This document shows positions 8,415-62,476 of a stretch of 64,000 nucleotides of DNA, in pieces. Below the pieces are notes generated by a model. It saw only the letters and a list, made by a program, of their open reading frames with translations, was not told the DNA's origin and did no database searches. This DNA comes from Nanobdellota archaeon (lineage in GTDB: Archaea; Nanobdellota; Nanobdellia; Pacearchaeales; GW2011-AR1). Both the position numbers and the translations under genes were made by a program. Each line of letters opens with the position of its first letter. Position 1 is the first letter of the stretch. The stretch spans positions 11,465-75,464 of the forward strand of contig JBBSXJ010000004.1 in the NCBI GenBank assembly GCA_038045825.1. Reading direction: 5' to 3'.

Positions 8415-8469
8415 TATGTTTATTTTGTACTGATAAAATCTTTATATACTAATCAGAGTGATTTGTTTT

Positions 8470-10977
8470 ATGGCTAAAGAAAAAGAGGAAGTGGATGATA
8501 AAGAGCCAGGTTTGACAAGTATTCCTGGAATTGGCCCTGGTATTGCTTCTAAACTTGAGGCTGCCGGTGTTTATGATTTAATGGGTCTTGCTGTAATGTC
8601 TCCTCCAGCACTTTCTGAACTTGCTGGTGTCGGGGAAGCAGTTGCTCGAAAAGCTATTCAGGCTGCTAGGGGAATGATGAAACTTGGATTTATGGATGGG
8701 GCAGAATTTGATAAGAGAAGAGCTGATATCCATTACATTACAACTGGAAGTAAGAATCTCGATGGTTTATTTGGAGGTAAGGGAATTGAGTCTAGGGCGA
8801 TAACTGAGTGTTATGGAGCTTTTGGGAGTGGAAAGTGTGTGAGCAAAGATACGCCTGTTTGTTACTTCAATGATTCTAGAATGCATGTTGAACAAATTCA
8901 AGAAACTTATAAAAAATATCAAGATAAAAATGGTGAAATGATTGTTGAGGGAGGATGCGCTGTTCCTGTTTCAACAGTTAAGGTTCTTGCATGGGTTAAT
9001 GGAAATTTAAAAATTGTTAATGCGGATAATATTTACAAGGAAAAAGTAAAAAATTTATATGTTGTAAAAACTAAAAGAGGAAGAATCCTTAAAATTACTG
9101 GTAAGCATCAACTACTTAGTTTTGATAATGGTGTTAATTGGAAGAGAGCTGAAGAACTACAAAAATGGGATATTATAGCTTCTCCTAAAAAAATTGATTT
9201 AACTACAGAACATGAATATGACTTAGATGATGCTTACTTTTTAGGTATTTTCACTGCGGAAGGCACATCCAACCCTTTTTCTATAAGTATCACTGATCAA
9301 AAGATTAAAGATTGGATATGTAACTATATTAATAGAAAATTTGGTTATTTACCAACCGTAAGAACAAGAAAGATTGAAGGAAGACTTGATTGCTACACAA
9401 TATTATTTAGAAACAATACAAGACAATTTATGTACAAATTAGATAAGTGCCTTGCTGATAGTAAATTTATTCCTGAAGGGATTTTTCTTTCAAATATAGA
9501 GGTTATATCCTCATTTCTTGGAGGGTATTTTGATGGTGACGGAGAAGTATCTGAATCGGATATATCTGCAACTACAAAGAGTAAGATACTTGCGACTCAA
9601 TTAACTTATCTTTTACTAAGATTGGGGATTTCCTCCAGTCTTAAAGAAAGATTTGCCGGAACTAACAATGAAAAATTTTATGTAGTAAGAATAAGTGGAG
9701 AGGATAGAAAAGAACTAAGTAAGATTATGTTTAAATCAAAGACTTTTACTCCTAATGTCAAGAATAGTTCTTACTGTTATCCTAGAATTATAATAGATTA
9801 CATTAAAGATCTTTACATGGATAGTATTGGAGGAAACAGAGGAAATTTAAGAAAAGAGGTAGGCAAATATTTTATTAATCAAGGATATAGAAATTTAATA
9901 AGCAATACAAATTCGAAAGTTATAAATGAAAATACTCTCAATCAAATCAAGAATATTTTTACTGAACAAAGCAACACTTTTATGAATGTATTAAATATAC
10001 TTAAAAATAATAATCTTTCTCAGTCTATTCTTCATGAAATTTATCCAAAACTTCCTTTTGCTTTTAATAGTCTTAGTGAAAAAATGAATGTTAGTAAAAA
10101 ATCAATTGGTAATTATATCTCTAGATCTATCCCTGATGATAAAAATGACCTTCTAAGAAAATTAATTGTCGATGAATTAAATGCTAGGATAGATGTAGCT
10201 GTTTTAGCCTTGCAAATTATTAATGAAATTAAATTATTCAATTGGGACATTATTGAAAGTATTGAAATGATAGATTATAACGACTATGTATATGATTTTG
10301 TTGTTCCTGAAGGACATTCTTTTGTTGGTGGCAATCTTCCCACAATGATGCATAATACTCAGCTCGGATTGACATTGACTGTAAATGTACAATTGCCTAA
10401 AGAACAGGGAGGAAGTGAAGGTAAAGCTGTTTACATTGATACTGAAGGAACTTTTAGACCTGATAGGATAAAACAAATTGCCGAGGGTGTTGGTGCTAAT
10501 CCTGAAAAAGTTTTGAAGAATATTCTTGTTGCTAGGGCTTTTAATTCAGATCATCAAATTTTATTATTGGATAAAATAACTGAAATGATTAAGGAAAATA
10601 ATGAACCTATCAAGCTTGTTGTTATAGATTCATTAACCGCTCATTTTAGAGCTGAGTTTTCTGGTCGTGGTCAGCTTGCTGATAGGCAACAGAAACTGAA
10701 TAAATATTTGCATCATTTGATGAAACTGGCTGAACAACATAATATTGCAATTTATGTTACTAATCAAGTAATGGCTAATCCTGCAATGATGTTTGGAGAT
10801 CCTACAACTGCTATCGGTGGGAATATAGTGGGTCACGCAAGTACTTATCGAGTATATTTACGTCGTGGAAAACAGGGAACTAGAGTTGCTAAGATGATTG
10901 ATGCTCCTAATCTGCCTGAGAATGAAGCCGCATTCTATTTGACACTTCATGGTGTTAGAGATGAAAGTCCCGAGTGA
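8470..10977 (+). CDS. radA: DNA repair and recombination protein RadA, interrupted by an intein
   Basis: HhH domain (LTSIPGIGPGIASKLEAAG). Walker A is split as GAFGSGK / TQLGLTL. The C-extein has VYIDTEGTFRP, LVVIDSL and IAIYVTNQV. The track start at 8458 is GTG; the ATG at 8470 lies about 25 nt after the TATA CTTTATATAC. Confidence 0.95.
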   Translation: MAKEKEEVDDKEPGLTSIPGIGPGIASKLEAAGVYDLMGLAVMSPPALSELAGVGEAVARKAIQAARGMMKLGFMDGAEFDKRRADIHYITTGSKNLDGLFGGKGIESRAITECYGAFGSGKCVSKDTPVCYFNDSRMHVEQIQETYKKYQDKNGEMIVEGGCAVPVSTVKVLAWVNGNLKIVNADNIYKEKVKNLYVVKTKRGRILKITGKHQLLSFDNGVNWKRAEELQKWDIIASPKKIDLTTEHEYDLDDAYFLGIFTAEGTSNPFSISITDQKIKDWICNYINRKFGYLPTVRTRKIEGRLDCYTILFRNNTRQFMYKLDKCLADSKFIPEGIFLSNIEVISSFLGGYFDGDGEVSESDISATTKSKILATQLTYLLLRLGISSSLKERFAGTNNEKFYVVRISGEDRKELSKIMFKSKTFTPNVKNSSYCYPRIIIDYIKDLYMDSIGGNRGNLRKEVGKYFINQGYRNLISNTNSKVINENTLNQIKNIFTEQSNTFMNVLNILKNNNLSQSILHEIYPKLPFAFNSLSEKMNVSKKSIGNYISRSIPDDKNDLLRKLIVDELNARIDVAVLALQIINEIKLFNWDIIESIEMIDYNDYVYDFVVPEGHSFVGGNLPTMMHNTQLGLTLTVNVQLPKEQGGSEGKAVYIDTEGTFRPDRIKQIAEGVGANPEKVLKNILVARAFNSDHQILLLDKITEMIKENNEPIKLVVIDSLTAHFRAEFSGRGQLADRQQKLNKYLHHLMKLAEQHNIAIYVTNQVMANPAMMFGDPTTAIGGNIVGHASTYRVYLRRGKQGTRVAKMIDAPNLPENEAAFYLTLHGVRDESPE
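8836..10356 (+). mobile_element. 507-aa intein with LAGLIDADG homing endonuclease domain in the RadA P-loop
   Basis: It starts with Cys right after GSGK (CVSKDTPV), has block B TGKH, DOD motifs LDDAYFLGIFTAEGT and SSFLGGYFDGDGEV, and ends ...MMHN followed by +1 Thr. Excision restores GSGKTQ. Confidence 0.9.
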
Positions 10978-17874: not shown

Positions 17875-17932
17875 GAATGTTTTTTGTTAGTAGGGTTTTT
17901 AAAGCTGGTGGTTTGAAATTATAATAGATATT

Positions 17933-18006
17933 AGCCCTGTAGAATAGCTGGCCAAGTTCGCAGGCCTTTGGCGCCTGAGACCCCGGTTCGAATCCGGGCG
18001 GGGCTA
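17933..18006 (+). tRNA. tRNA-Gln (anticodon TTG)
   Basis: Acceptor AGCCCTG/CGGGGCT, anticodon arm CAGGC-CTTTGGC-GCCTG, T arm CCCGG-TTCGAAT-CCGGG. 74 nt. Confidence 0.85.
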
Positions 18007-18037
18007 TTTATTTAAATGTGCATTTTATTGTATAATT

Positions 18038-27187: not shown

Positions 27188-27274
27188 AGCCTCTGGAGGG
27201 AATTGAACCCCCAACCCTTAGTTCATTTGGGTCTTCCGTACAAAACTAATGCTCTACCATTGAGCTACAGAGGC
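27188..27274 (-). tRNA. tRNA-Thr (anticodon TGT) with a ~15-nt intron at the canonical 37/38 position
   Basis: Acceptor GCCTCTG/CAGAGGC and T arm GGGGG-TTCAATT-CCCTC. The anticodon stem TTAGT/ACTAA is interrupted after TTTGTA by CGGAAGACCCAAATG. The intron CAAA can pair with loop TTTG. Confidence 0.75.
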
Positions 27275-55302: not shown

Positions 55303-56958
55303 ATGGTATTTTCAAAGTTACGCAGAGGATTACTAGCAACTTTAGGGGGACTTGCTTTAGCTGGCTGTAGCTCTGAAGAAGACATAATCGAAAAAGTTCC
55401 TATTCAATATAGATCATCTGTTCAAAAGGCAATATTTTCAGCAGGAAATAATTCTAGTGAATTAATTAAGGCATTAGAAACTTTTAGAAACGATTCTGAA
55501 AAACTTGAGGCTACTAGTTTCTTGGTATCTGAAACTCCAAGGCGCATGCATAGAAAACATCCAGTTGATTGGACTTGGGATTTGGCTCATAAAGATTATA
55601 CTGAGATAAGCGATGTAGCTGTTATAAAATCTAATGATTTGGTAGATAATGTTAATTGGGCATTTGTTGCAAGAGATAGATTTCCTTGGGCTAAGGAATT
55701 ATATGATGGAAACAAACCATTATTCTTTAGCGGTGTTTTACCTTATAGATTAGGGACTTCTTCTATTCAACAACTTCCTGAAGATGTAGGACATTGGAGA
55801 GCTATTTTCTTAGATGAGAAAGTTTTTAGTGCTGTTAAGGAAAAATATGGATTAAAAACTGAATTTAAGGAAATAGAAGCAAAACTTGAAGACTTAGTAA
55901 ACTCATACAAACAAGCTACTACTCCAGATAAAAAGGATGCTGTTTTAAAAGATTTTACTAGATTTGTAGAATTTGATTTTATGCCTACTAATGGTCTAAA
56001 ATATTTTCCAAGAGGACCTGAAGAAAAAACCCTAGATGTTTTTCTTACTTCGGAAGTTAAAGATGGAGTTGTAAGAAGAGGCGGAAGATGTACAGATGGT
56101 GACAATAACTCTAGATATTTACATATGAGTGCAGGAATTCCTACATCTTCTATTCGTTTCATAGCCTGGCCTGCTGGAGATGATAATCATGAAGTTATGC
56201 GCGTTTTACTTCCTGGAAAACCTTTTGATATGTCTACTTGTATTCACGCAGATAACAATTCTGAACAATTAGAATATGTGGTTGGTAAGGTTGGTAAAGT
56301 ATATGAAGAAACTTGGGGAACTCGCGATGCTTCTTCTGAAGTAGTTTGGAATTTGAAAGATGGAGAAGAATTGCCTTGGTATATTAATTTTTATTTAAGA
56401 ACAAGATCTACAACAGATGTAACTGATAGATACGGGCCTACTAGAAATGTTAAGATACAAACTCAAAGACCTGGGCAACTTATATATTTAGGTGTAATGA
56501 ATAATAACTCAGATACTCCTCTTGGAACAGCTACTGTTGCTATAGATAGGGCAGATGAGAGAGGTATAGCAGAATTTGATAAAGTTGGAAGTGATAGTAT
56601 ATTTTACATACCTTATACTTATGATGAATTGAATGGTGAACCTATGGCTCGTGCTGTAAGTTTTCCATTCGTTTTAAGGAAAGATGGAACTGAAAGGATA
56701 TTTGGATCTGGATTTGATGCGACAAAATATTCCCCATCTACTTTGACTGGATTGGAACCCGGGAGAATTTACGAATTATCAGGTTTTTTTGTACAAAGTG
56801 GTTGGAGTTTAAGATCTACTATAACTTCAAGAAATAATGGAACTGCTGATGTAAGTCTTGCTGATAGCGCTGTTTACGTTTTAAGAAGTAAATCTAATAA
56901 TGAACTGATGTATTCTAGACCATTTGCTTTAACTGATGGTAAAATAGAGAAGTTCTAA
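55303..56958 (+). CDS. Transglutaminase-like cysteine protease-fold lipoprotein
   Basis: Classical lipobox MVFSKLRRGLLATLGGLALAGC/SSEE. The core is GGRCTDGDNNSRYLHMSAGIPTSSIRF...DDNHEVMRV (Cys/His of the transglutaminase-like fold). Confidence 0.7.
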   Translation: MVFSKLRRGLLATLGGLALAGCSSEEDIIEKVPIQYRSSVQKAIFSAGNNSSELIKALETFRNDSEKLEATSFLVSETPRRMHRKHPVDWTWDLAHKDYTEISDVAVIKSNDLVDNVNWAFVARDRFPWAKELYDGNKPLFFSGVLPYRLGTSSIQQLPEDVGHWRAIFLDEKVFSAVKEKYGLKTEFKEIEAKLEDLVNSYKQATTPDKKDAVLKDFTRFVEFDFMPTNGLKYFPRGPEEKTLDVFLTSEVKDGVVRRGGRCTDGDNNSRYLHMSAGIPTSSIRFIAWPAGDDNHEVMRVLLPGKPFDMSTCIHADNNSEQLEYVVGKVGKVYEETWGTRDASSEVVWNLKDGEELPWYINFYLRTRSTTDVTDRYGPTRNVKIQTQRPGQLIYLGVMNNNSDTPLGTATVAIDRADERGIAEFDKVGSDSIFYIPYTYDELNGEPMARAVSFPFVLRKDGTERIFGSGFDATKYSPSTLTGLEPGRIYELSGFFVQSGWSLRSTITSRNNGTADVSLADSAVYVLRSKSNNELMYSRPFALTDGKIEKF

Positions 56959-57467
56959 GGTTTCAACCAAGAGATTTCGTAATACAGGACATCGTTTTCA
57001 TCGTCAACTATGCCTATAAGGAGTTTCTTTTTTGTTGAATGTGCAACTCTGTTTTTTGCTGCAAAATCATGCCATGTGTGGGGTTCTGATTCTCTAACTG
57101 CATATGCAAGCCATAATGCATGGTCTTGACCTGGCATTGATCCTTTTTTGTAAATTCTAAAGTCTGCTCCGAATTTTAAGGCTGTTTTTACAATATATCC
57201 TTTTTCTCTTAAGTTTTCAAATAGAGTTAGTTTTGTTTCAATTCTTTTGTCATGTTTTTTTGCTATGTTTATTGCTTTGTCAAAACTGATTTCTTTGTTT
57301 TTATAGTTTAAAATTAATTTCTTTTTACTTGCTAGGAACAGAGCTTCTACCCATGAATATTCTATTCTGTCTCTTAACTTTTCTCCAAATCTTGACTTTT
57401 CATACCATGAAAAAGCATCACTTGATGTTGAATGTATTTTTTCACTTGTAACATGTGCTATTATCAT
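56955..57467 (-). CDS. endA: tRNA-splicing endonuclease (EndA, short homotetramer-type length)
   Basis: 170 aa. EALFLASKKKL, YIVKTALKFGADFRIYKKG and HALWLAY...AHSTKKKLLIG. Confidence 0.85.
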   Translation of the reverse strand: MIIAHVTSEKIHSTSSDAFSWYEKSRFGEKLRDRIEYSWVEALFLASKKKLILNYKNKEISFDKAINIAKKHDKRIETKLTLFENLREKGYIVKTALKFGADFRIYKKGSMPGQDHALWLAYAVRESEPHTWHDFAAKNRVAHSTKKKLLIGIVDDENDVLYYEISWLKP

Positions 57468-59031: not shown

Positions 59032-61932
59032 ATGAAGCAGATTAACTTTTCTACGATTGACAAGAAATGGCAGAAGGAGTGGGAAAAGTCTAAAGTATTT
59101 GAGGCTAAAGAGGATGATAAGAAAGAGAAGTACTATGCTTTAGCTATGTATCCTTATCCATCTGCAAATGGGTTGCATATGGGTCATGCTTTCAATTATA
59201 CTATTGGAGATATTCTTGCTCGTTTCATGAGGATGAATGGTAAATCAGTTTTACATCCAATGGGTTTTGATAGTTTTGGATTGCCTGCCGAAAATGCTGC
59301 AATTAAAGATGGAACTCATCCTGGGAAATATACTGATACTGCTATAAAGAGATTTATTGAACAACAGAAGGCTTTGGGATTAAGTTATGATTGGTCTAGA
59401 AAATTACAGAGTCACGATCCTGAATATTACAAATGGAATCAGTATTTCTTTTTGCAGTTTTTGAAAAAAGGACTTGCTTATAGAAAAGACTCTTCTGTAA
59501 ATTGGTGTTCTAAATGCGACACTGTTTTGGCTAACGAACAAGTAAATGATGGAAAATGTTGGAGACATAAAGATACTGAAGTAAATATTAAAAAATTAGA
59601 GCAGTGGTTTTTCAAGACTACTCAGTATGCTGATGAGTTACTTAAAGGGTTAGATAAGTTGGATTGGCCTGAAAGAATAAAATCAATGCAGAGGAATTGG
59701 ATTGGAAAAAGCGAAGGTACTGAGGTTTTATTTGAAATAAATGGAGAAAGATGGCCTGTTTTTACAACAAGAGCAGATACTTTATTTGGAGTTACCTTTT
59801 TAGTTATTAGTGCCCAACATTCTCGTTTGAATGAATTAGTTACTAAAGAACAAAAGAAACATGTTGATGTATTTTTGAAGAAAATTAAATCTACTAAACA
59901 AGAGGATTCTGATAAAATGGAAAAGGAAGGAGTGTTTACGGGAAGTTATGCTTTACATCCTTTAACTAGAAAGAAAATTCCTATTTGGGTTGGTAATTTT
60001 GTTGTTGCAGATTATGGTTCTGGGGTTGTAATGGCTGTACCTGCTCACGATTCTCGTGATTTTGCATTTGCTAAGAAATATAATATTCCTTTGATTGAAG
60101 TTGTTGTTCCAAATAGAATTGATAAGAAAAATCCTCCTGTTAAAGGTAAAGCTTCTAAAGAAAGAAAAAATGTTCAAGCAATTGTTAGAAACCCTAAGAC
60201 TGGAAAAATATTATTCTTGAAGTCACATGAACACAAATGGATAACTCTGCCAATGGGAGGAGTTGAAGGAGATGAAAGTGTTGTTGATGCTGCTAAGAGA
60301 GAGGTTAAGGAAGAGACAGGTTATGCTAATTTAAAATATGTTAAAACTCTTGGAGGAATGATAAAGGCAGAATATTTTGCTAATCATAAGGATGAAAACA
60401 GGGTTTCTTACACAAATGCAGTTATGTTTGATTTAGTTGATGAAAAGAAGGTTAAACTTGATAAGGGTGAAGAAGGTAAACACGAAGTAATGTGGATTGA
60501 TAAAAAAGATGTTGTTTACCCTTATATTGTTCATGCCGAATTAAATGATTGGCTTCATAGGTGGGATAAAGATGATTATGCTTATACAGATTACGGAGTT
60601 TTGGTTAACTCTGGAGACTTTAACGGATTGTCTAGTGAAGAGGCTATTAAACATATACAAATAGTCTTGGAAGAAAAGAAACTTGGTAAGGCTGTTGTGA
60701 ATTACAAATTACGTGATTGGTTAATATCTAGACAGAGATATTGGGGCACACCTATCCCTATAATATATTGTGATGATTGTGGGGCTGTTCCAGTTCCTGA
60801 AAGGGAATTACCTGTTTTATTGCCTGAGAAAGTTACATTTGGAAAAGGGAATCCTTTATTTAGTAATGAAAAATTTGTGAAAGCTAAGTGTCCTAATTGT
60901 GGTAAAAATGGAAGGCGTGAAACAGACACAATGGATACATTTATTGATTCCAGTTGGTATTACTTAAGATTCACTGATCCTGGAAATAAGAAGTTGCCTT
61001 TAAGCGTTGATAATTTGAGTTATTGGATGCCTGTTGATTTTTACATTGGCGGGTCAGAACATGCTTGCGGGCATTTAATTTATTCTAGATTTATTACAAA
61101 AACACTTCGTGATTTAGGATATTTGAAAGTTGATGAACCCTTCCAAAGATTGTTTAATCAAGGTATGGTTCATGGAGAAGACGGCGTTGTGATGTCAAAA
61201 TCTAGGGGAAATGTTGTTGATCCTCTTGATATGACTAGTAAGTATGGGGCAGACACACTTAGATTATTCTTGGTAAGTGTTGCAGCTCCAGATAAAGATT
61301 CTTCTTGGAGTTCTACAGGTGTTGAATCTATGTATAAATTTGTTAATAAAGTTTGGAATTATGCAAATAGTGTTAATTTTAGTAAATCTTCTGCTAAAGT
61401 TCAACACAAGGTGAATAAAGCAATAGTTGAAGTTACTGAAGATATAAAGAATTTGAATTATAATATGGCCGTTATTAAATTACGCGCTTTATTTGATTCA
61501 TTTGAAGATGAAATTGATAAATCTGATTTTGCAACTTATTTGCAATTAATTGCTTCTTTTGCACCCCATATTGCGGAAGAGTTGTGGCACAATGTTCTTG
61601 GATATAACACATTTGTAAGTTTGAGCGAATGGCCTACCGCAGATACTAAGAGGATAAATGATAATATTGATAAAATTGAAGAAAGCTTTGAAAAAACTGT
61701 TTCTGATATACAGAATGTACTTCGAATTGTTAAAGATAAGGAAAGAAAAGATACTAAACATATCTATCTTTATGCTATTCCTCCTGAGGTAAAGAATTTT
61801 GATAAAGAAGTATTAGCTAAAAGACTTGGAATTGACGTTTCTATTTTTGCTGTTAATGATAATAAGAAGTATGACCCGTCTGGCAAAGCTTCTAAGGCTA
61901 AGCCTGGAAAGCCAGCTATTTATGTTGAATAG
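59032..61932 (+). CDS. leuS: Leucyl-tRNA synthetase, bacterial-type, with an inserted Nudix domain
   Basis: YALAMYPYPSANGLHMGH, NWCSKCDTVLANEQV, RNWIGKSEG, TTRADTLFG, VPAHDSRDFAFA, LRDWLISRQRYWGTPIP, and VMSKSRGN (the KMSKS motif). It is 966 aa. Confidence 0.95.
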   Translation: MKQINFSTIDKKWQKEWEKSKVFEAKEDDKKEKYYALAMYPYPSANGLHMGHAFNYTIGDILARFMRMNGKSVLHPMGFDSFGLPAENAAIKDGTHPGKYTDTAIKRFIEQQKALGLSYDWSRKLQSHDPEYYKWNQYFFLQFLKKGLAYRKDSSVNWCSKCDTVLANEQVNDGKCWRHKDTEVNIKKLEQWFFKTTQYADELLKGLDKLDWPERIKSMQRNWIGKSEGTEVLFEINGERWPVFTTRADTLFGVTFLVISAQHSRLNELVTKEQKKHVDVFLKKIKSTKQEDSDKMEKEGVFTGSYALHPLTRKKIPIWVGNFVVADYGSGVVMAVPAHDSRDFAFAKKYNIPLIEVVVPNRIDKKNPPVKGKASKERKNVQAIVRNPKTGKILFLKSHEHKWITLPMGGVEGDESVVDAAKREVKEETGYANLKYVKTLGGMIKAEYFANHKDENRVSYTNAVMFDLVDEKKVKLDKGEEGKHEVMWIDKKDVVYPYIVHAELNDWLHRWDKDDYAYTDYGVLVNSGDFNGLSSEEAIKHIQIVLEEKKLGKAVVNYKLRDWLISRQRYWGTPIPIIYCDDCGAVPVPERELPVLLPEKVTFGKGNPLFSNEKFVKAKCPNCGKNGRRETDTMDTFIDSSWYYLRFTDPGNKKLPLSVDNLSYWMPVDFYIGGSEHACGHLIYSRFITKTLRDLGYLKVDEPFQRLFNQGMVHGEDGVVMSKSRGNVVDPLDMTSKYGADTLRLFLVSVAAPDKDSSWSSTGVESMYKFVNKVWNYANSVNFSKSSAKVQHKVNKAIVEVTEDIKNLNYNMAVIKLRALFDSFEDEIDKSDFATYLQLIASFAPHIAEELWHNVLGYNTFVSLSEWPTADTKRINDNIDKIEESFEKTVSDIQNVLRIVKDKERKDTKHIYLYAIPPEVKNFDKEVLAKRLGIDVSIFAVNDNKKYDPSGKASKAKPGKPAIYVE
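60112..60582 (+). other. Nudix hydrolase domain inserted within LeuRS (aa ~361-517)
   Basis: Perfect Nudix box GGVEGDESVVDAAKREVKEETGY (aa 409-431, nt 60256..60324), matching Gx5Ex7REUxEExGU. It lies between the conserved IPLIEVV and YGVLVNSGDFNGL segments. Confidence 0.8.
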
Positions 61933-61972: not shown

Positions 61973-62476
61973 ATGAAGATTTATCTTATACAACCAGGTC
62001 AGAATGAGGAAGGTAGCCTTACCGAAAAGGGAAGATTGGAGCTTAATACACTTACTAGACGGTTAATTAATGATAAGATAAACGTGAATAGGATTTATGT
62101 TAATGGACATAGCATTTCTAGGCAAACAGGTGATATGTTGAGCAAGGCTCTTGAAGTTCCAATTATAAGTGATGAAAGGTTCTCGGAAATAGGAAAAGAT
62201 GTTATTTTAGGCAATTTTAATGAACTTGACTTTGAAAATTTGCACTGTGTTAATTTATTTGTAGATGAAATTGTTTGTAGAAAGAATGATGCTATAGTAA
62301 CTATTGGGGGAGGAGTTCATAGAGTTATAATTAGTAGACTAACTGGAATGTCGTTGGAAGAAACGAGACATTTTTCCCTTACACCTGCTGGAATTTCCAC
62401 TTTATATTATGATAATAGCACTGGAAGATGGAGAATCAACTCTCTTAACGATGTGAACCATTTAAGACTTCCTTAG
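61973..62476 (+). CDS. Histidine-phosphatase-fold protein with degenerate catalytic motif
   Basis: IYLIQPGQ stands where the family has IYLIRHGE, and LTEKGRLE follows. The later VSHGG-type motif reads TIGGGVHRV. Confidence 0.55.
   Translation: MKIYLIQPGQNEEGSLTEKGRLELNTLTRRLINDKINVNRIYVNGHSISRQTGDMLSKALEVPIISDERFSEIGKDVILGNFNELDFENLHCVNLFVDEIVCRKNDAIVTIGGGVHRVIISRLTGMSLEETRHFSLTPAGISTLYYDNSTGRWRINSLNDVNHLRLP

What the first reader, a model, noticed from the sequence alone, without database searches (positions are those of the whole stretch)
60112..60582. Complete Nudix hydrolase domain inserted into a bacterial-type leucyl-tRNA synthetase
The LeuRS carries all bacterial-type landmarks (PYPSxxLHMGH, NWCxxCxTVLANEQV, VPAHDxRDFxFA, LRDWxISRQRYWG, MSKS). 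Between IPLIEVV and YGVLVNSGDFNGL, where E. coli LeuRS as I recall it has only about 20-25 residues, there are about 155 extra residues. These contain a perfect Nudix box, GGVEGDESVVDAAKREVKEETGY. I do not know of a described aaRS-Nudix fusion at this site. A Nudix module next to the editing domain could hydrolyse adenylates, Ap4A or other nucleotide by-products, but that is speculation. A bacterial-type LeuRS in an archaeon also implies horizontal transfer.
Basis: partly seen in the sequence, partly recalled or inferred. Interest (0 to 1): 0.8.

Follow-up and report, generated by a model that had tools for sequence, protein, structure and literature searches.

The report
Nudix hydrolase nested inside leucyl-tRNA synthetase
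An archaeal leucyl-tRNA synthetase carries a complete Nudix (nucleotide-pyrophosphate-cleaving) enzyme inside its proofreading domain; the same undescribed pairing recurs in well over a hundred sequence clusters from ultrasmall archaea and bacteria, which suggests the two enzymes work together.

Summary
ORF 59032-61932 (+, 966 aa) is a leucyl-tRNA synthetase (LeuRS) with a bacterial-type body (TIGR00396, 900 bits) and an archaeal-type C-terminal domain. About 157 residues (aa 359-517) replace a 12-16-residue hairpin loop inside the CP1 editing domain. They form a confidently modelled Nudix fold (Pfam E 9e-14, pLDDT about 89) with a canonical Nudix box.

It is not an assembly artefact. 35 of 120 close DPANN LeuRS carry it, as do Patescibacteria LeuRS. 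A profile of the insert finds 160 cluster representatives at E<=1e-30, and 111 of the best 150 are LeuRS.

The same Nudix clade sits at three LeuRS regions, in one to three copies, and also inside a ProRS. Free-standing members lie directly next to aaRS genes in 4 of 9 cases. Insert presence is patchy and does not track the LeuRS core.

The same loops hold other domains in relatives: a serine hydrolase, an NTase-like domain and two unknowns.

I infer an RppH/ApnA-hydrolase-like activity on nucleotide by-products of aminoacylation. The substrate is untested. I found no paper describing this. Verdict: a new variant of a known kind, interest 0.72.

The parts
59032..61932 (+). leuS gene: 966-aa LeuRS with a bacterial-type body, host of the insert
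   Evidence: ORF. TIGR00396 leuS_bact scores 900.7 bits against a cut-off of 548.4. PDB LeuRS 1h3n matches at E 3e-220. The AF2 model has pLDDT 88.9 and pTM 0.78. Foldseek TMt is 0.72-0.81 to bacterial LeuRS.
59152..59187 (+). HIGH-type signature PYPSANGLHMGH (aa 41-52) of the synthetic site
   Evidence: Read directly from the sequence. H49, G51 and H52 are invariant in 55 relatives.
59692..60105 (+). N-terminal part of the CP1 editing domain (aa 221-358). It includes the T-rich motif FTTRADT (aa 244-250) and the editing Asp in VPAHDSRD (D340).
   Evidence: Pfam PF13603 at aa 221-367, E 5e-60. T245, T246, R247, D249, T250, H339 and D340 are invariant whether or not the insert is present.
60106..60582 (+). 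The inserted module (aa 359-517). It replaces a 12-16-residue hairpin loop of CP1.
   Evidence: Alignment to 1h3n and to insert-free P0004. pLDDT is 84-93 in the full model and 89.1 for the module modelled alone.
60106..60171 (+). Basic N-terminal arm of the module: VPNRIDKKNPPVKGKASKERKN (aa 359-380; pI about 10.7, calculated on aa 361-384)
   Evidence: A comparable arm precedes the Nudix core in other subtypes and in free-standing members.
60163..60513 (+). Nudix fold core (aa 378-494)
   Evidence: Pfam PF00293, E 9e-14. Strand and helix order is typical of Nudix. Foldseek finds 2azw, RppH, NudI and Ap4A hydrolases.
60256..60324 (+). Nudix box GGVEGDESVVDAAKREVKEETGY (aa 409-431), with catalytic-type residues E415, R423, E424, E427 and E428
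   Evidence: The box is strict in 34 of 35 DPANN LeuRS inserts. G, G, E, EE and G are invariant in alignment A2.
60373..60375 (+). Tyr448, 17 residues after the box: the aromatic marker associated with ApnA-hydrolase/RppH-type Nudix enzymes
   Evidence: Position +17 is aromatic in 144 of 155 boxes (F 82, Y 62), an aromatic lies within +16..+18 in 153 of 155, and Tyr lies within +16..+18 in 108 of 155. The subfamily rule itself is recalled from the literature, not tested here.
60577..60708 (+). C-terminal part of CP1, resuming at YAYTDYGVLVNSGDFNGL (aa 516-559)
   Evidence: Alignment to 1h3n residues 375 onward.
61189..61203 (+). KMSKS-type loop VMSKS (aa 720-724)
   Evidence: K723, S724 and G726 are invariant.
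61678..61929 (+). Archaeal-type C-terminal tRNA-binding domain (aa 883-966)
   Evidence: The last 110 aa match P. horikoshii LeuRS 812-865 and 929-967, E 6e-4. They do not align to the T. thermophilus C-terminal domain.

Best explanation
The window encodes a working LeuRS. Its synthetic and editing sites are intact, its body is bacterial-type and its C-terminal domain is archaeal-type.

The CP1 editing domain carries, in a surface beta-hairpin, a complete and catalytically competent Nudix pyrophosphohydrolase. So the protein is a two-enzyme polypeptide, and the Nudix module is kept by selection because its activity is tied to aminoacylation.

The most likely chemistry is RppH/ApnA-hydrolase-like. 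The Nudix module would cleave the pyrophosphate bridge of dinucleoside polyphosphates (Ap4A, Ap3A and relatives). Synthetases make these when an enzyme-bound aminoacyl-adenylate reacts with ATP or ADP. Cleavage returns them to usable mononucleotides in organisms that depend on nucleotide salvage.

What is shown:
- the domain, its fold, its box and its exact position;
- recurrence in DPANN and Patescibacteria;
- repeated independent placement in LeuRS and in ProRS;
- operon-like placement of free-standing homologues beside aaRS genes.

What is inferred: that the module is active, that it is functionally coupled to the synthetase, and above all what its substrate is.
For: 1. The domain is real. 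Pfam NUDIX E 9e-14. AF2 pLDDT about 89 both in context and alone. Foldseek and profile hits go only to Nudix enzymes.

2. The host is intact. The HIGH, KMSKS, T-rich and editing-Asp motifs are invariant across 55 relatives with and without the insert.

3. Selection acts on the module. The box is strict in 34 of 35 DPANN inserts. In the nearest pair, P0002 and P0003, the Nudix part is 92% identical while the LeuRS core is 85% identical.

4. The clade is linked to aaRS.
- The insert profile finds 160 cluster representatives at E<=1e-30. Of the best 150, 111 have LeuRS flanks.
- Nudix modules sit at three different LeuRS regions: 101 at the CP1 hairpin, 17 at the core/CP1 junction and 4 in the ZN-2 region. 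14 of the 150 proteins carry more than one module (up to three); 12 of these have LeuRS flanks.
- The same clade is inserted in a ProRS (L091, E 6e-53).
- Free-standing members lie 2-3 nt upstream of leuS, directly upstream of thrS, and directly after argS next to an ileS-like gene. That is 4 of 9 directly adjacent, binomial p about 3e-4 against a 4% background that I estimated.

5. Subfamily hints.
- The best NCBIfam hits are the RNA pyrophosphohydrolases YtkD and RppH.
- The highest Foldseek TM-scores include RppH (0.68-0.69) and Ap4A hydrolases.
- The PDB profile search lists Ap4A hydrolases, AvrM14, Dcp2 and RppH.
- There is a conserved aromatic residue 17 residues after the box, Tyr448 here.
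Against: No substrate was tested, and every subfamily match is weak. NCBIfam scores are 28-33 bits against cut-offs of 116-154. Identity to any solved Nudix is 14-25%. The top structural hit, 2azw, is uncharacterised.

Ap4A is freely diffusible, so tethering is not obviously needed.

One adjacent synthetase is ArgRS. As I recall, ArgRS does not make Ap4A.

Several neighbourhoods also hold nucleotide-salvage or repair genes: dUTPase, thymidylate kinase, an HD nucleotidase, Fpg and PRPP synthetase. These would fit plain nucleotide house-cleaning.

46 of 200 modules in the wider clade depart from the strict box. A few are mistranslations, but one subclade has E7->Q and has lost the Arg, so not all members need be hydrolases of the same kind.

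I had no access to model coordinates. I could not check where the Nudix active site points relative to the editing and synthetic sites.
Confidence: 0.4

Rival explanations
1. The Nudix module acts in cis on RNA. It would be an RppH/Dcp2-like pyrophosphohydrolase that trims 5'-triphosphate or nucleotide-cap (NAD, Np4N) ends of tRNA-Leu, or of other tRNAs, while they are bound to the synthetase.
For: The best sequence-level family hits are the RNA pyrophosphohydrolases YtkD/BsRppH and RppH. PDB profile hits include the decapping enzymes AvrM14, Dcp2 and RppH. RppH gives the highest TM-scores. The module has a strongly basic N-terminal arm, pI about 10.7. It sits on CP1, the domain that handles the tRNA acceptor end (established knowledge of LeuRS). 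Tethering and multiple copies make more sense for a macromolecular substrate than for a diffusible one.
Against: All these matches are below the family cut-offs. No reason is known why tRNA-Leu in particular would need 5'-end trimming. As far as I know, Patescibacteria generally have RNase P, which leaves a 5' monophosphate. The ProRS insertion lies in a quite different part of that enzyme. I could not test the geometry.
Confidence: 0.2
2. The module is an ordinary house-cleaning or salvage Nudix (MutT-like NTP or NDP-X hydrolase) with no mechanistic link to LeuRS. In streamlined CPR/DPANN genomes it has been parked in permissive loops of highly expressed essential genes, which gives it co-expression.
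For: JGI names a free-standing member 'MutT'. Neighbourhoods include dUTPase, thymidylate kinase, an HD 5'-nucleotidase, TatD, PRPP synthetase and Fpg. Three of nine free-standing members have no aaRS nearby. Foldseek hits also include MutT1, NudI and NUDT15.
Against: This does not explain three things: 111 of the best 150 clade representatives are LeuRS, the module entered LeuRS at three different regions and in up to three copies, and it also entered ProRS. Internal domain insertion is much rarer than end-to-end fusion. Repeated occurrence in one enzyme family argues for selection.
Confidence: 0.2
3. The module is one of several interchangeable protective cassettes on the synthetase: Nudix, serine hydrolase, NTase-like and unknown domains. 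These would inactivate adenylate-mimic inhibitors of LeuRS, or reverse toxin-made modifications of the tRNA acceptor end.
For: In close relatives the same CP1 hairpin holds at least four unrelated inserts, and a second CP1 hairpin holds an alpha/beta serine hydrolase. Insert presence is patchy on the LeuRS tree. Nudix identity does not follow core identity: Spearman 0.09; P0002 vs P0009 is 76% in the core but 33% in the Nudix part. This kind of turnover is typical of conflict systems. From established knowledge, LeuRS is a known target of natural Trojan-horse inhibitors such as agrocin 84/TM84. An IleRS with a GNAT domain exists as an NCBIfam model (NF040702).
Against: None of the insert types gives a significant PADLOC match. 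No inhibitor with a Nudix-cleavable pyrophosphate is known for LeuRS. The insert has the same composition as the gene, and there are no repeats at its borders.
Confidence: 0.1
4. The module is a non-catalytic passenger: a structural, tRNA-binding or ligand-sensing domain that has merely kept Nudix-like sequence.
For: Regulatory Nudix-like domains such as AraR appear among the structural hits. In the wider clade 46 of 200 modules lack the strict box, including a subclade with E7->Q and the Arg lost. The module has a basic arm.
Against: The window's box is canonical. 34 of 35 DPANN inserts keep every box residue despite only about 30% overall identity between subtypes. That pattern is what is expected if catalysis is under selection.
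Confidence: 0.07
5. The insert is an assembly or annotation artefact: a chimeric contig, a frameshift or a read-through.
For: None found.
Against: The ORF is continuous and its composition is even. An 86%-identical protein with the same architecture comes from another assembly, and dozens more come from NCBI, ENA, JGI and Logan. The GTDB genomes L003, L004, L006 and L007 have it too.
Confidence: 0.01

Closest known systems
Bacterial-type LeuRS (TIGR00396; T. thermophilus 1h3n, E. coli 4aq7/4arc), and the chimeric bacterial-body/archaeal-CTD LeuRS of haloarchaea (Fang et al. 2014, PMC4005665)
   Same: Same catalytic core, ZN-1 and ZN-2 modules, bacterial-style CP1 editing-domain position, T-rich and Asp editing motifs, and HIGH/KMSKS motifs. 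Like the haloarchaeal enzymes, it has an archaeal-type C-terminal domain.
   Different: It carries a 157-residue enzyme domain in a CP1 hairpin that has 12-16 residues in other LeuRS. The stretch corresponding to the leucine-specific domain (T. thermophilus about 580-625) is absent. No solved LeuRS has such an insert.
Nudix hydrolases of the RppH / ApnA-hydrolase group (E. coli RppH, B. subtilis YtkD, NUDT2-type Ap4A hydrolases)
   Same: Canonical Nudix box, the same fold, an aromatic residue 17 residues after the box, and the best (weak) sequence and structure matches.
   Different: Identity is only 14-25% and scores are far below the equivalog cut-offs. The clade has its own N-terminal arm and conserved Lys/Arg after the box. 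It is mostly found nested in aaRS rather than free-standing. Substrate unknown.
Functional pairs of a synthetase with a nucleotide hydrolase: LysRS-Ap4A-NUDT2 signalling and HINT hydrolysis of lysyl-AMP (recalled from the literature, not tested here)
   Same: A synthetase that makes adenylate-derived nucleotides is paired with an enzyme that destroys them.
   Different: In those systems the proteins are separate and belong to eukaryotic signalling. Here the hydrolase lies inside the synthetase polypeptide or in the same operon, in prokaryotes with reduced genomes.
Synthetases with extra catalytic domains, e.g. IleRS with an N-acetyltransferase domain (NCBIfam NF040702), and free-standing trans-editing factors (AlaX, YbaK, ProX)
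   Same: An additional enzymatic function is attached to, or encoded beside, an aaRS.
   Different: The fold and chemistry differ, and those factors are homologues of editing domains. The Nudix module is unrelated to any known editing fold.
Inteins (one is present in this window's radA, 8458-10977)
   Same: A large in-frame insertion in an essential gene, with patchy distribution among close relatives.
   Different: No splice-junction residues, no homing endonuclease and no Hint fold. The insert is a conserved enzyme that stays in the mature protein.

Membership tests
Bacterial-type leucyl-tRNA synthetase (TIGR00396 leuS_bact) | Equivalog HMM score above the curated cut-off | tested here: met
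   900.7 bits against a cut-off of 548.4. The match is split in two by the insert.
Bacterial-type leucyl-tRNA synthetase (TIGR00396 leuS_bact) | Class I signatures HIGH and KMSKS | tested here: met
   LHMGH at aa 48-52 and VMSKS at aa 720-724. Both are invariant in relatives.
Bacterial-type leucyl-tRNA synthetase (TIGR00396 leuS_bact) | CP1 editing domain with the T-rich motif and the conserved Asp | tested here: met
   PF13603, E 5e-60. FTTRADT at aa 244-250 and D340.
Bacterial-type leucyl-tRNA synthetase (TIGR00396 leuS_bact) | Bacterial C-terminal tRNA-binding domain | tested here: not met
   The C-terminal 110 aa match the archaeal P. horikoshii LeuRS C-terminal domain (E 6e-4) and do not align to the T. 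thermophilus one. The protein is a chimera of the kind described for haloarchaea.
Bacterial-type leucyl-tRNA synthetase (TIGR00396 leuS_bact) | Leucylation and editing activity | not testable with these tools
   Inferred from intact motifs. In the 80 best-matching GTDB loci no genome appears with two complete leuS genes.
Nudix hydrolase superfamily (PF00293) | Nudix box GX5EX7REUXEEXGU | tested here: met
   GGVEGDESVVDAAKREVKEETGY, aa 409-431.
Nudix hydrolase superfamily (PF00293) | Pfam score above the gathering threshold | tested here: met
   52.1 bits (whole protein) and 56.6 bits (insert alone) against 21.1.
Nudix hydrolase superfamily (PF00293) | Alpha/beta/alpha Nudix fold | tested here: met
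   AF2 pLDDT 89.1 and pTM 0.84. Foldseek finds 501 PDB matches at E<=0.001, and the 50 best listed are all Nudix-fold proteins, with TMt up to 0.79.
Nudix hydrolase superfamily (PF00293) | Metal-dependent hydrolysis of a nucleoside-diphosphate-X substrate | not testable with these tools
   Needs biochemistry.
ApnA hydrolase / RppH subfamily of Nudix | Tyr or other aromatic residue 16-18 residues after the box (rule recalled from Dunn et al. 1999) | tested here: met
   Tyr448 lies at +17. An aromatic lies within +16..+18 in 153 of 155 boxes.
ApnA hydrolase / RppH subfamily of Nudix | Score above the curated cut-off of an RppH or YtkD equivalog model | tested here: not met
   YtkD scores 32.6 bits against 154.4, and the RppH models score 20-28 bits against 116-259. 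I therefore do not file it as a member. The resemblance is a lead only.
Intein / mobile insertion | Splice-junction residues, Hint fold, or flanking repeats | tested here: not met
   The insert has no Pfam hit other than NUDIX. The borders read VV|VPNR and DDYA|YTDYG. Repeats at the borders are at chance level only.

The most novel reading that the evidence does not exclude
In ultrasmall episymbiotic prokaryotes (DPANN archaea and Patescibacteria), synthetases, above all LeuRS, may serve as scaffolds for swappable catalytic cassettes placed in loops around CP1: Nudix in one to three copies, serine hydrolase, NTase-like, histidine-phosphatase-like and unknown folds. These cassettes would act in cis on the adenylate or on the tRNA acceptor end. 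That would add a previously unknown layer of proofreading, repair or toxin resistance to aminoacylation. In this window the layer would be a Nudix-catalysed step that destroys misactivated or mimic adenylates, or unblocks tRNA ends.
Probability: 0.15. Interest if true: 0.9.

Novelty: new variant of a known kind. Interest (0 to 1): 0.72.

Why it matters
aaRS architecture is among the best-mapped areas of protein science. A second, unrelated hydrolase nested inside the LeuRS editing domain has apparently gone unremarked, although it is widespread: 160 cluster representatives (50% identity) at E<=1e-30.

Four lines of evidence together make a classic Rosetta-stone argument that a Nudix activity is functionally tied to aminoacylation in organisms with minimal genomes:
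- recurrence at several sites and in several copies;
- extension to ProRS;
- operon partners beside leuS, thrS and argS/ileS;
- swapping with other enzyme folds at the same loops.

Identifying the substrate would show either how these cells dispose of adenylate-derived by-products such as Ap4A, or a new quality-control or repair step on tRNA.

There is also a practical point. NCBI demotes these proteins to 'class I tRNA ligase family protein', perhaps because the insert splits the HMM match. LeuRS may therefore be miscounted as missing in DPANN/CPR genome-completeness and metabolic surveys.

Tried and rejected
- The word-indexed homologue search with the insert alone found only one fragment (P0001). 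The whole-protein search and the exhaustive profile search were needed.
- Six literature searches on LeuRS/aaRS with Nudix, DPANN or Patescibacteria found nothing relevant. A paper on domain-insertion architectures does not mention Nudix.
- Chimeric assembly or frameshift: rejected.
- Intein or mobile element: rejected. No junction residues, and only chance-level repeats at the borders.
- Defence-system membership: no significant PADLOC hit for any insert type or for the downstream gene.
- Pfam and NCBIfam gave no significant hit for the roughly 115-aa and 100-aa alternative inserts or for the P0082 insert. The NTase-like insert gets only a sub-threshold hit to PF10706.
- I expected Fang et al. 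2014 to mention Nanoarchaeum. It does not, so I cite it only for haloarchaea.
- I could not obtain model coordinates. Distances between the Nudix site, the editing pocket and the tRNA ends were not computed.
- A second, archaeal-type LeuRS in the same genome could not be excluded.


Full report
**1. The observation.**
The window holds one uninterrupted ORF, 59032..61932 on the + strand, 966 aa.
- It scores 900.7 bits on the bacterial LeuRS equivalog TIGR00396 (cut-off 548.4).
- It aligns to T. thermophilus LeuRS 1h3n at E 3e-220.

Pfam finds a NUDIX domain at aa 378-494. It scores 52.1 bits (E 9e-14) in the whole protein and 56.6 bits on the insert alone, against a gathering score of 21.1. The box GGVEGDESVVDAAKREVKEETGY (aa 409-431, nt 60256-60324) fits GX5EX7REUXEEXGU exactly.

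Against 1h3n the alignment breaks at query 358 / Tth 362 and resumes at query 516 / Tth 375. About 157 residues therefore replace a 12-residue loop. The nearest insert-free relative, P0004 (82% identical), has 16 residues there.

Base composition is even across the borders, and no meaningful repeats flank the insert. The only correction is that the insert lies inside CP1, in a beta-hairpin just after the helix that carries the editing Asp340, rather than beside it.

**2. It is a folded Nudix domain in an intact synthetase.**
AlphaFold2 with a 55-sequence alignment gives mean pLDDT 88.9 and pTM 0.78 for the whole protein. The insert region scores 84-93 and has the strand/helix order of a Nudix fold.
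- The whole model matches bacterial LeuRS structures with TMt 0.72-0.81. None of these has an insert.
- The module modelled alone (pLDDT 89.1) matches Nudix-fold structures throughout the listed hits.
- In 55 relatives with or without the insert, the HIGH, KMSKS, T-rich (T245, T246, R247, D249, T250) and H339/D340 residues are invariant. The Nudix domain adds to editing rather than replacing it.

The last 110 residues match the archaeal P. horikoshii LeuRS C-terminal domain (E 6e-4). The enzyme is therefore a bacterial-body/archaeal-CTD chimera, as described for haloarchaea (PMC4005665).

The genomic context is archaeal. It includes a tRNA-splicing endonuclease at 56955-57467, RadA with an intein at 8458-10977, and an intron-containing tRNA. 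The closest relatives are labelled Nanoarchaeota, Woesearchaeota or Pacearchaeota.

**3. It is not an artefact, and it is not rare.**
Among the 120 closest LeuRS clusters, 35 carry a Nudix module at this loop. 34 of the 35 keep every box residue, although the modules fall into at least six sequence subtypes that are only about 30% identical. These sequences come from NCBI, ENA, JGI and Logan assemblies.

Three Patescibacteria genomes (L003, L004, L007) and a Pacearchaeota genome (L006) have it too. Two hits have Trp where Gly is expected (GG->WW). I read this as UGA=Gly organisms (Gracilibacteria/SR1) translated with the wrong code.

A profile of 32 inserts was searched against 1.84 billion cluster representatives. 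It finds 160 at E<=1e-30 and 644 at E<=1e-10.

**4. The clade is tied to synthetases.**
Of the best 150 representatives, 111 have LeuRS flanks.
- By position, 101 modules sit at the CP1 hairpin. 17 sit at the core/CP1 junction (P0004 positions about 208-246) and 4 in the ZN-2 region (about 437-480).
- Fourteen of the 150 proteins have more than one module, and 12 of those have LeuRS flanks. Examples: P0122 and P0123 have two in tandem plus one at the hairpin, and P0131 has two in tandem at the hairpin.

Free-standing members are genuine genes on long contigs. Their neighbourhoods:

| Member | Neighbourhood |
|---|---|
| P0144 | 2 nt upstream of a LeuRS that itself carries a Nudix |
| P0154 | 3 nt upstream of a LeuRS without insert |
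| P0272 | directly upstream of ThrRS and MiaA |
| P0239 | directly after ArgRS, next to an IleRS-like gene |
| P0179 | in a cluster with MetRS and LeuRS |
| P0185 | two genes from a ProRS carrying the same clade at aa 387-534 (E 6e-53) |
| P0210, P0200, P0269 | no aaRS nearby |

Four of nine are directly adjacent to an aaRS gene. That corresponds to p about 3e-4 under a 4% background. The background is my own estimate for a genome of about 1,000 genes.

**5. Turnover.**
On a neighbour-joining tree of 802 core columns, insert-bearing and insert-free LeuRS are interleaved. P0004 (no insert) is sister to the window's protein.

Identity of the Nudix modules hardly follows identity of the cores (Spearman 0.09):

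| Pair | Core identity | Nudix identity |
|---|---|---|
| P0002 vs P0009 | 76% | 33% |
| P0002 vs P0094 | 58% | 50% |
| P0002 vs P0003 (nearest pair) | 85% | 92% |

In relatives the same hairpin holds other inserts:
- a roughly 165-aa NTase-like domain (GGFGLR...NNKDIDV; weak PF10706 hit);
- two unrelated inserts of about 115 and 100 aa.

A second CP1 hairpin, just before the T-rich motif, holds an alpha/beta serine hydrolase with GHSLGG (PF06821/PF00561), with or without Nudix in the same protein.

**6. What it most likely does.**
The catalytic residues are under selection, the host enzyme is intact, and the link to aaRS is statistical and repeated. So I take the module to be an active pyrophosphohydrolase whose substrate is connected with aminoacylation.

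The weak family signals point one way:
- The best NCBIfam hits are YtkD and RppH.
- The highest TM-scores are to RppH, and Ap4A hydrolases are also listed.
- PDB profile hits include Ap4A hydrolases, AvrM14, Dcp2 and RppH.
- There is an aromatic residue 17 residues after the box, Tyr448 here. One lies within +16..+18 in 153 of 155 boxes. I recall this as the ApnA-hydrolase marker.

Dinucleoside polyphosphates are the one class of Nudix substrate that synthetases themselves produce (established knowledge). The partners LeuRS, ProRS, ThrRS, IleRS and MetRS can all form adenylates without tRNA. I therefore put ApnA clearance first, at about 0.4.

Alternatives:
- Action on tRNA 5' ends or caps, about 0.2.
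- Uncoupled house-cleaning, about 0.2. This is supported by salvage and repair genes in several neighbourhoods.
- A protective-cassette role, about 0.1. The domain swapping suggests it, but PADLOC gives no support.
- A non-catalytic role, about 0.07. In the wider clade 46 of 200 modules depart from the strict box.

**7. Novelty.**
The proteins are in public databases, usually named 'class I tRNA ligase family protein' or 'leucyl-tRNA synthetase'. I found no paper that describes a Nudix domain in LeuRS or any aaRS. No solved LeuRS structure has it.

It is a new variant of known kinds (LeuRS and Nudix), not a new kind of system. The breadth, the repeated insertion and the cassette-like behaviour are what make it interesting.

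Noticed in passing
relatives P0015, P0018, P0019, P0043, P0054, P0064, P0075, P0086, P0094, P0111, P0115 (equivalent to window aa about 236-238, nt about 59737-59745): A roughly 180-aa alpha/beta serine hydrolase (GHSLGG; PF06821/PF00561) is inserted in the CP1 hairpin 'LFEI-NGE-WPVFTTR', immediately before the T-rich editing motif. It occurs with or without the Nudix insert in the same protein.
   Followed up: partly
relatives P0015, P0021, P0066; P0018, P0019; P0020, P0084, P0111, P0121 (same loop as window 60106-60582): The loop that holds Nudix in the window holds other inserts in relatives. One is a roughly 165-aa NTase-like domain (GGFGLR..NNKDIDV; PF10706 at E 0.002, below threshold). 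Two others, of about 115 and 100 aa, have no family match.
   Followed up: partly
L091:2762-4693: A class II ProRS (bacterial contig, Logan SRR28285656) carries the same Nudix clade at aa 387-534 (E 6e-53), between the anticodon-binding domain and the ProRS C-terminal domain. A free-standing member lies two genes upstream.
   Followed up: partly
window 61973-62476 (+); L088:5094-8498: A 167-aa histidine-phosphatase-superfamily protein lies 40 nt downstream of leuS. Its N-terminal RHG motif reads QPG, so it may be inactive. It is conserved in that position in 8 related loci, with or without the Nudix insert (53-80% identity). Separately, an IleRS-like gene in L088 has a His_Phos_1 domain inserted.
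   Followed up: partly
window 8458-10977 (+): radA (Rad51/RecA family, 839 aa) is interrupted by an intein with a LAGLIDADG homing endonuclease (PF14890, PF14528, PF05204).
   Followed up: no
window 61189-61203 and flanks (aa about 715-720): The stretch corresponding to the leucine-specific domain of T. thermophilus LeuRS (residues about 580-625) is absent from this LeuRS. Query 715 aligns to Tth 579 and query 709 to Tth 626.
   Followed up: no
window 27188-27274 (-) and 17932-18007 (+): There are two tRNA-Gln(UUG) genes. The 87-nt one appears to carry a short intron next to the anticodon loop. This fits the tRNA-splicing endonuclease gene at 56955-57467.
   Followed up: no
P0082 (equivalent to window aa about 583, after YCDDCG, nt about 60783): A 130-aa insert sits inside the ZN-2 knuckle of a related LeuRS. 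It contains GSKKIETR, which looks like an ASCH-type motif, but it has no Pfam hit.
   Followed up: no
P0262, P0271, P0140, P0240, P0196: Trp appears where invariant Gly is expected (GG->WW, ETG->ETW). This probably means UGA=Gly (code 25) organisms translated with a UGA=Trp table. If so, LeuRS-Nudix also occurs in Gracilibacteria/Absconditabacteria.
   Followed up: no
P0086, P0122-P0125, P0151, P0157, P0169, P0179 and others: A subclade of the Nudix modules (YIGLKWKK..TFITGG) has E7 of the box replaced by Gln and has lost the box Arg, while keeping EE. This may mean a changed or lost activity.
   Followed up: no
one search hit table: NCBI names insert-bearing LeuRS 'class I tRNA ligase family protein', while insert-free relatives are named 'leucine--tRNA ligase'. 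The insert may be degrading automatic annotation.
   Followed up: no
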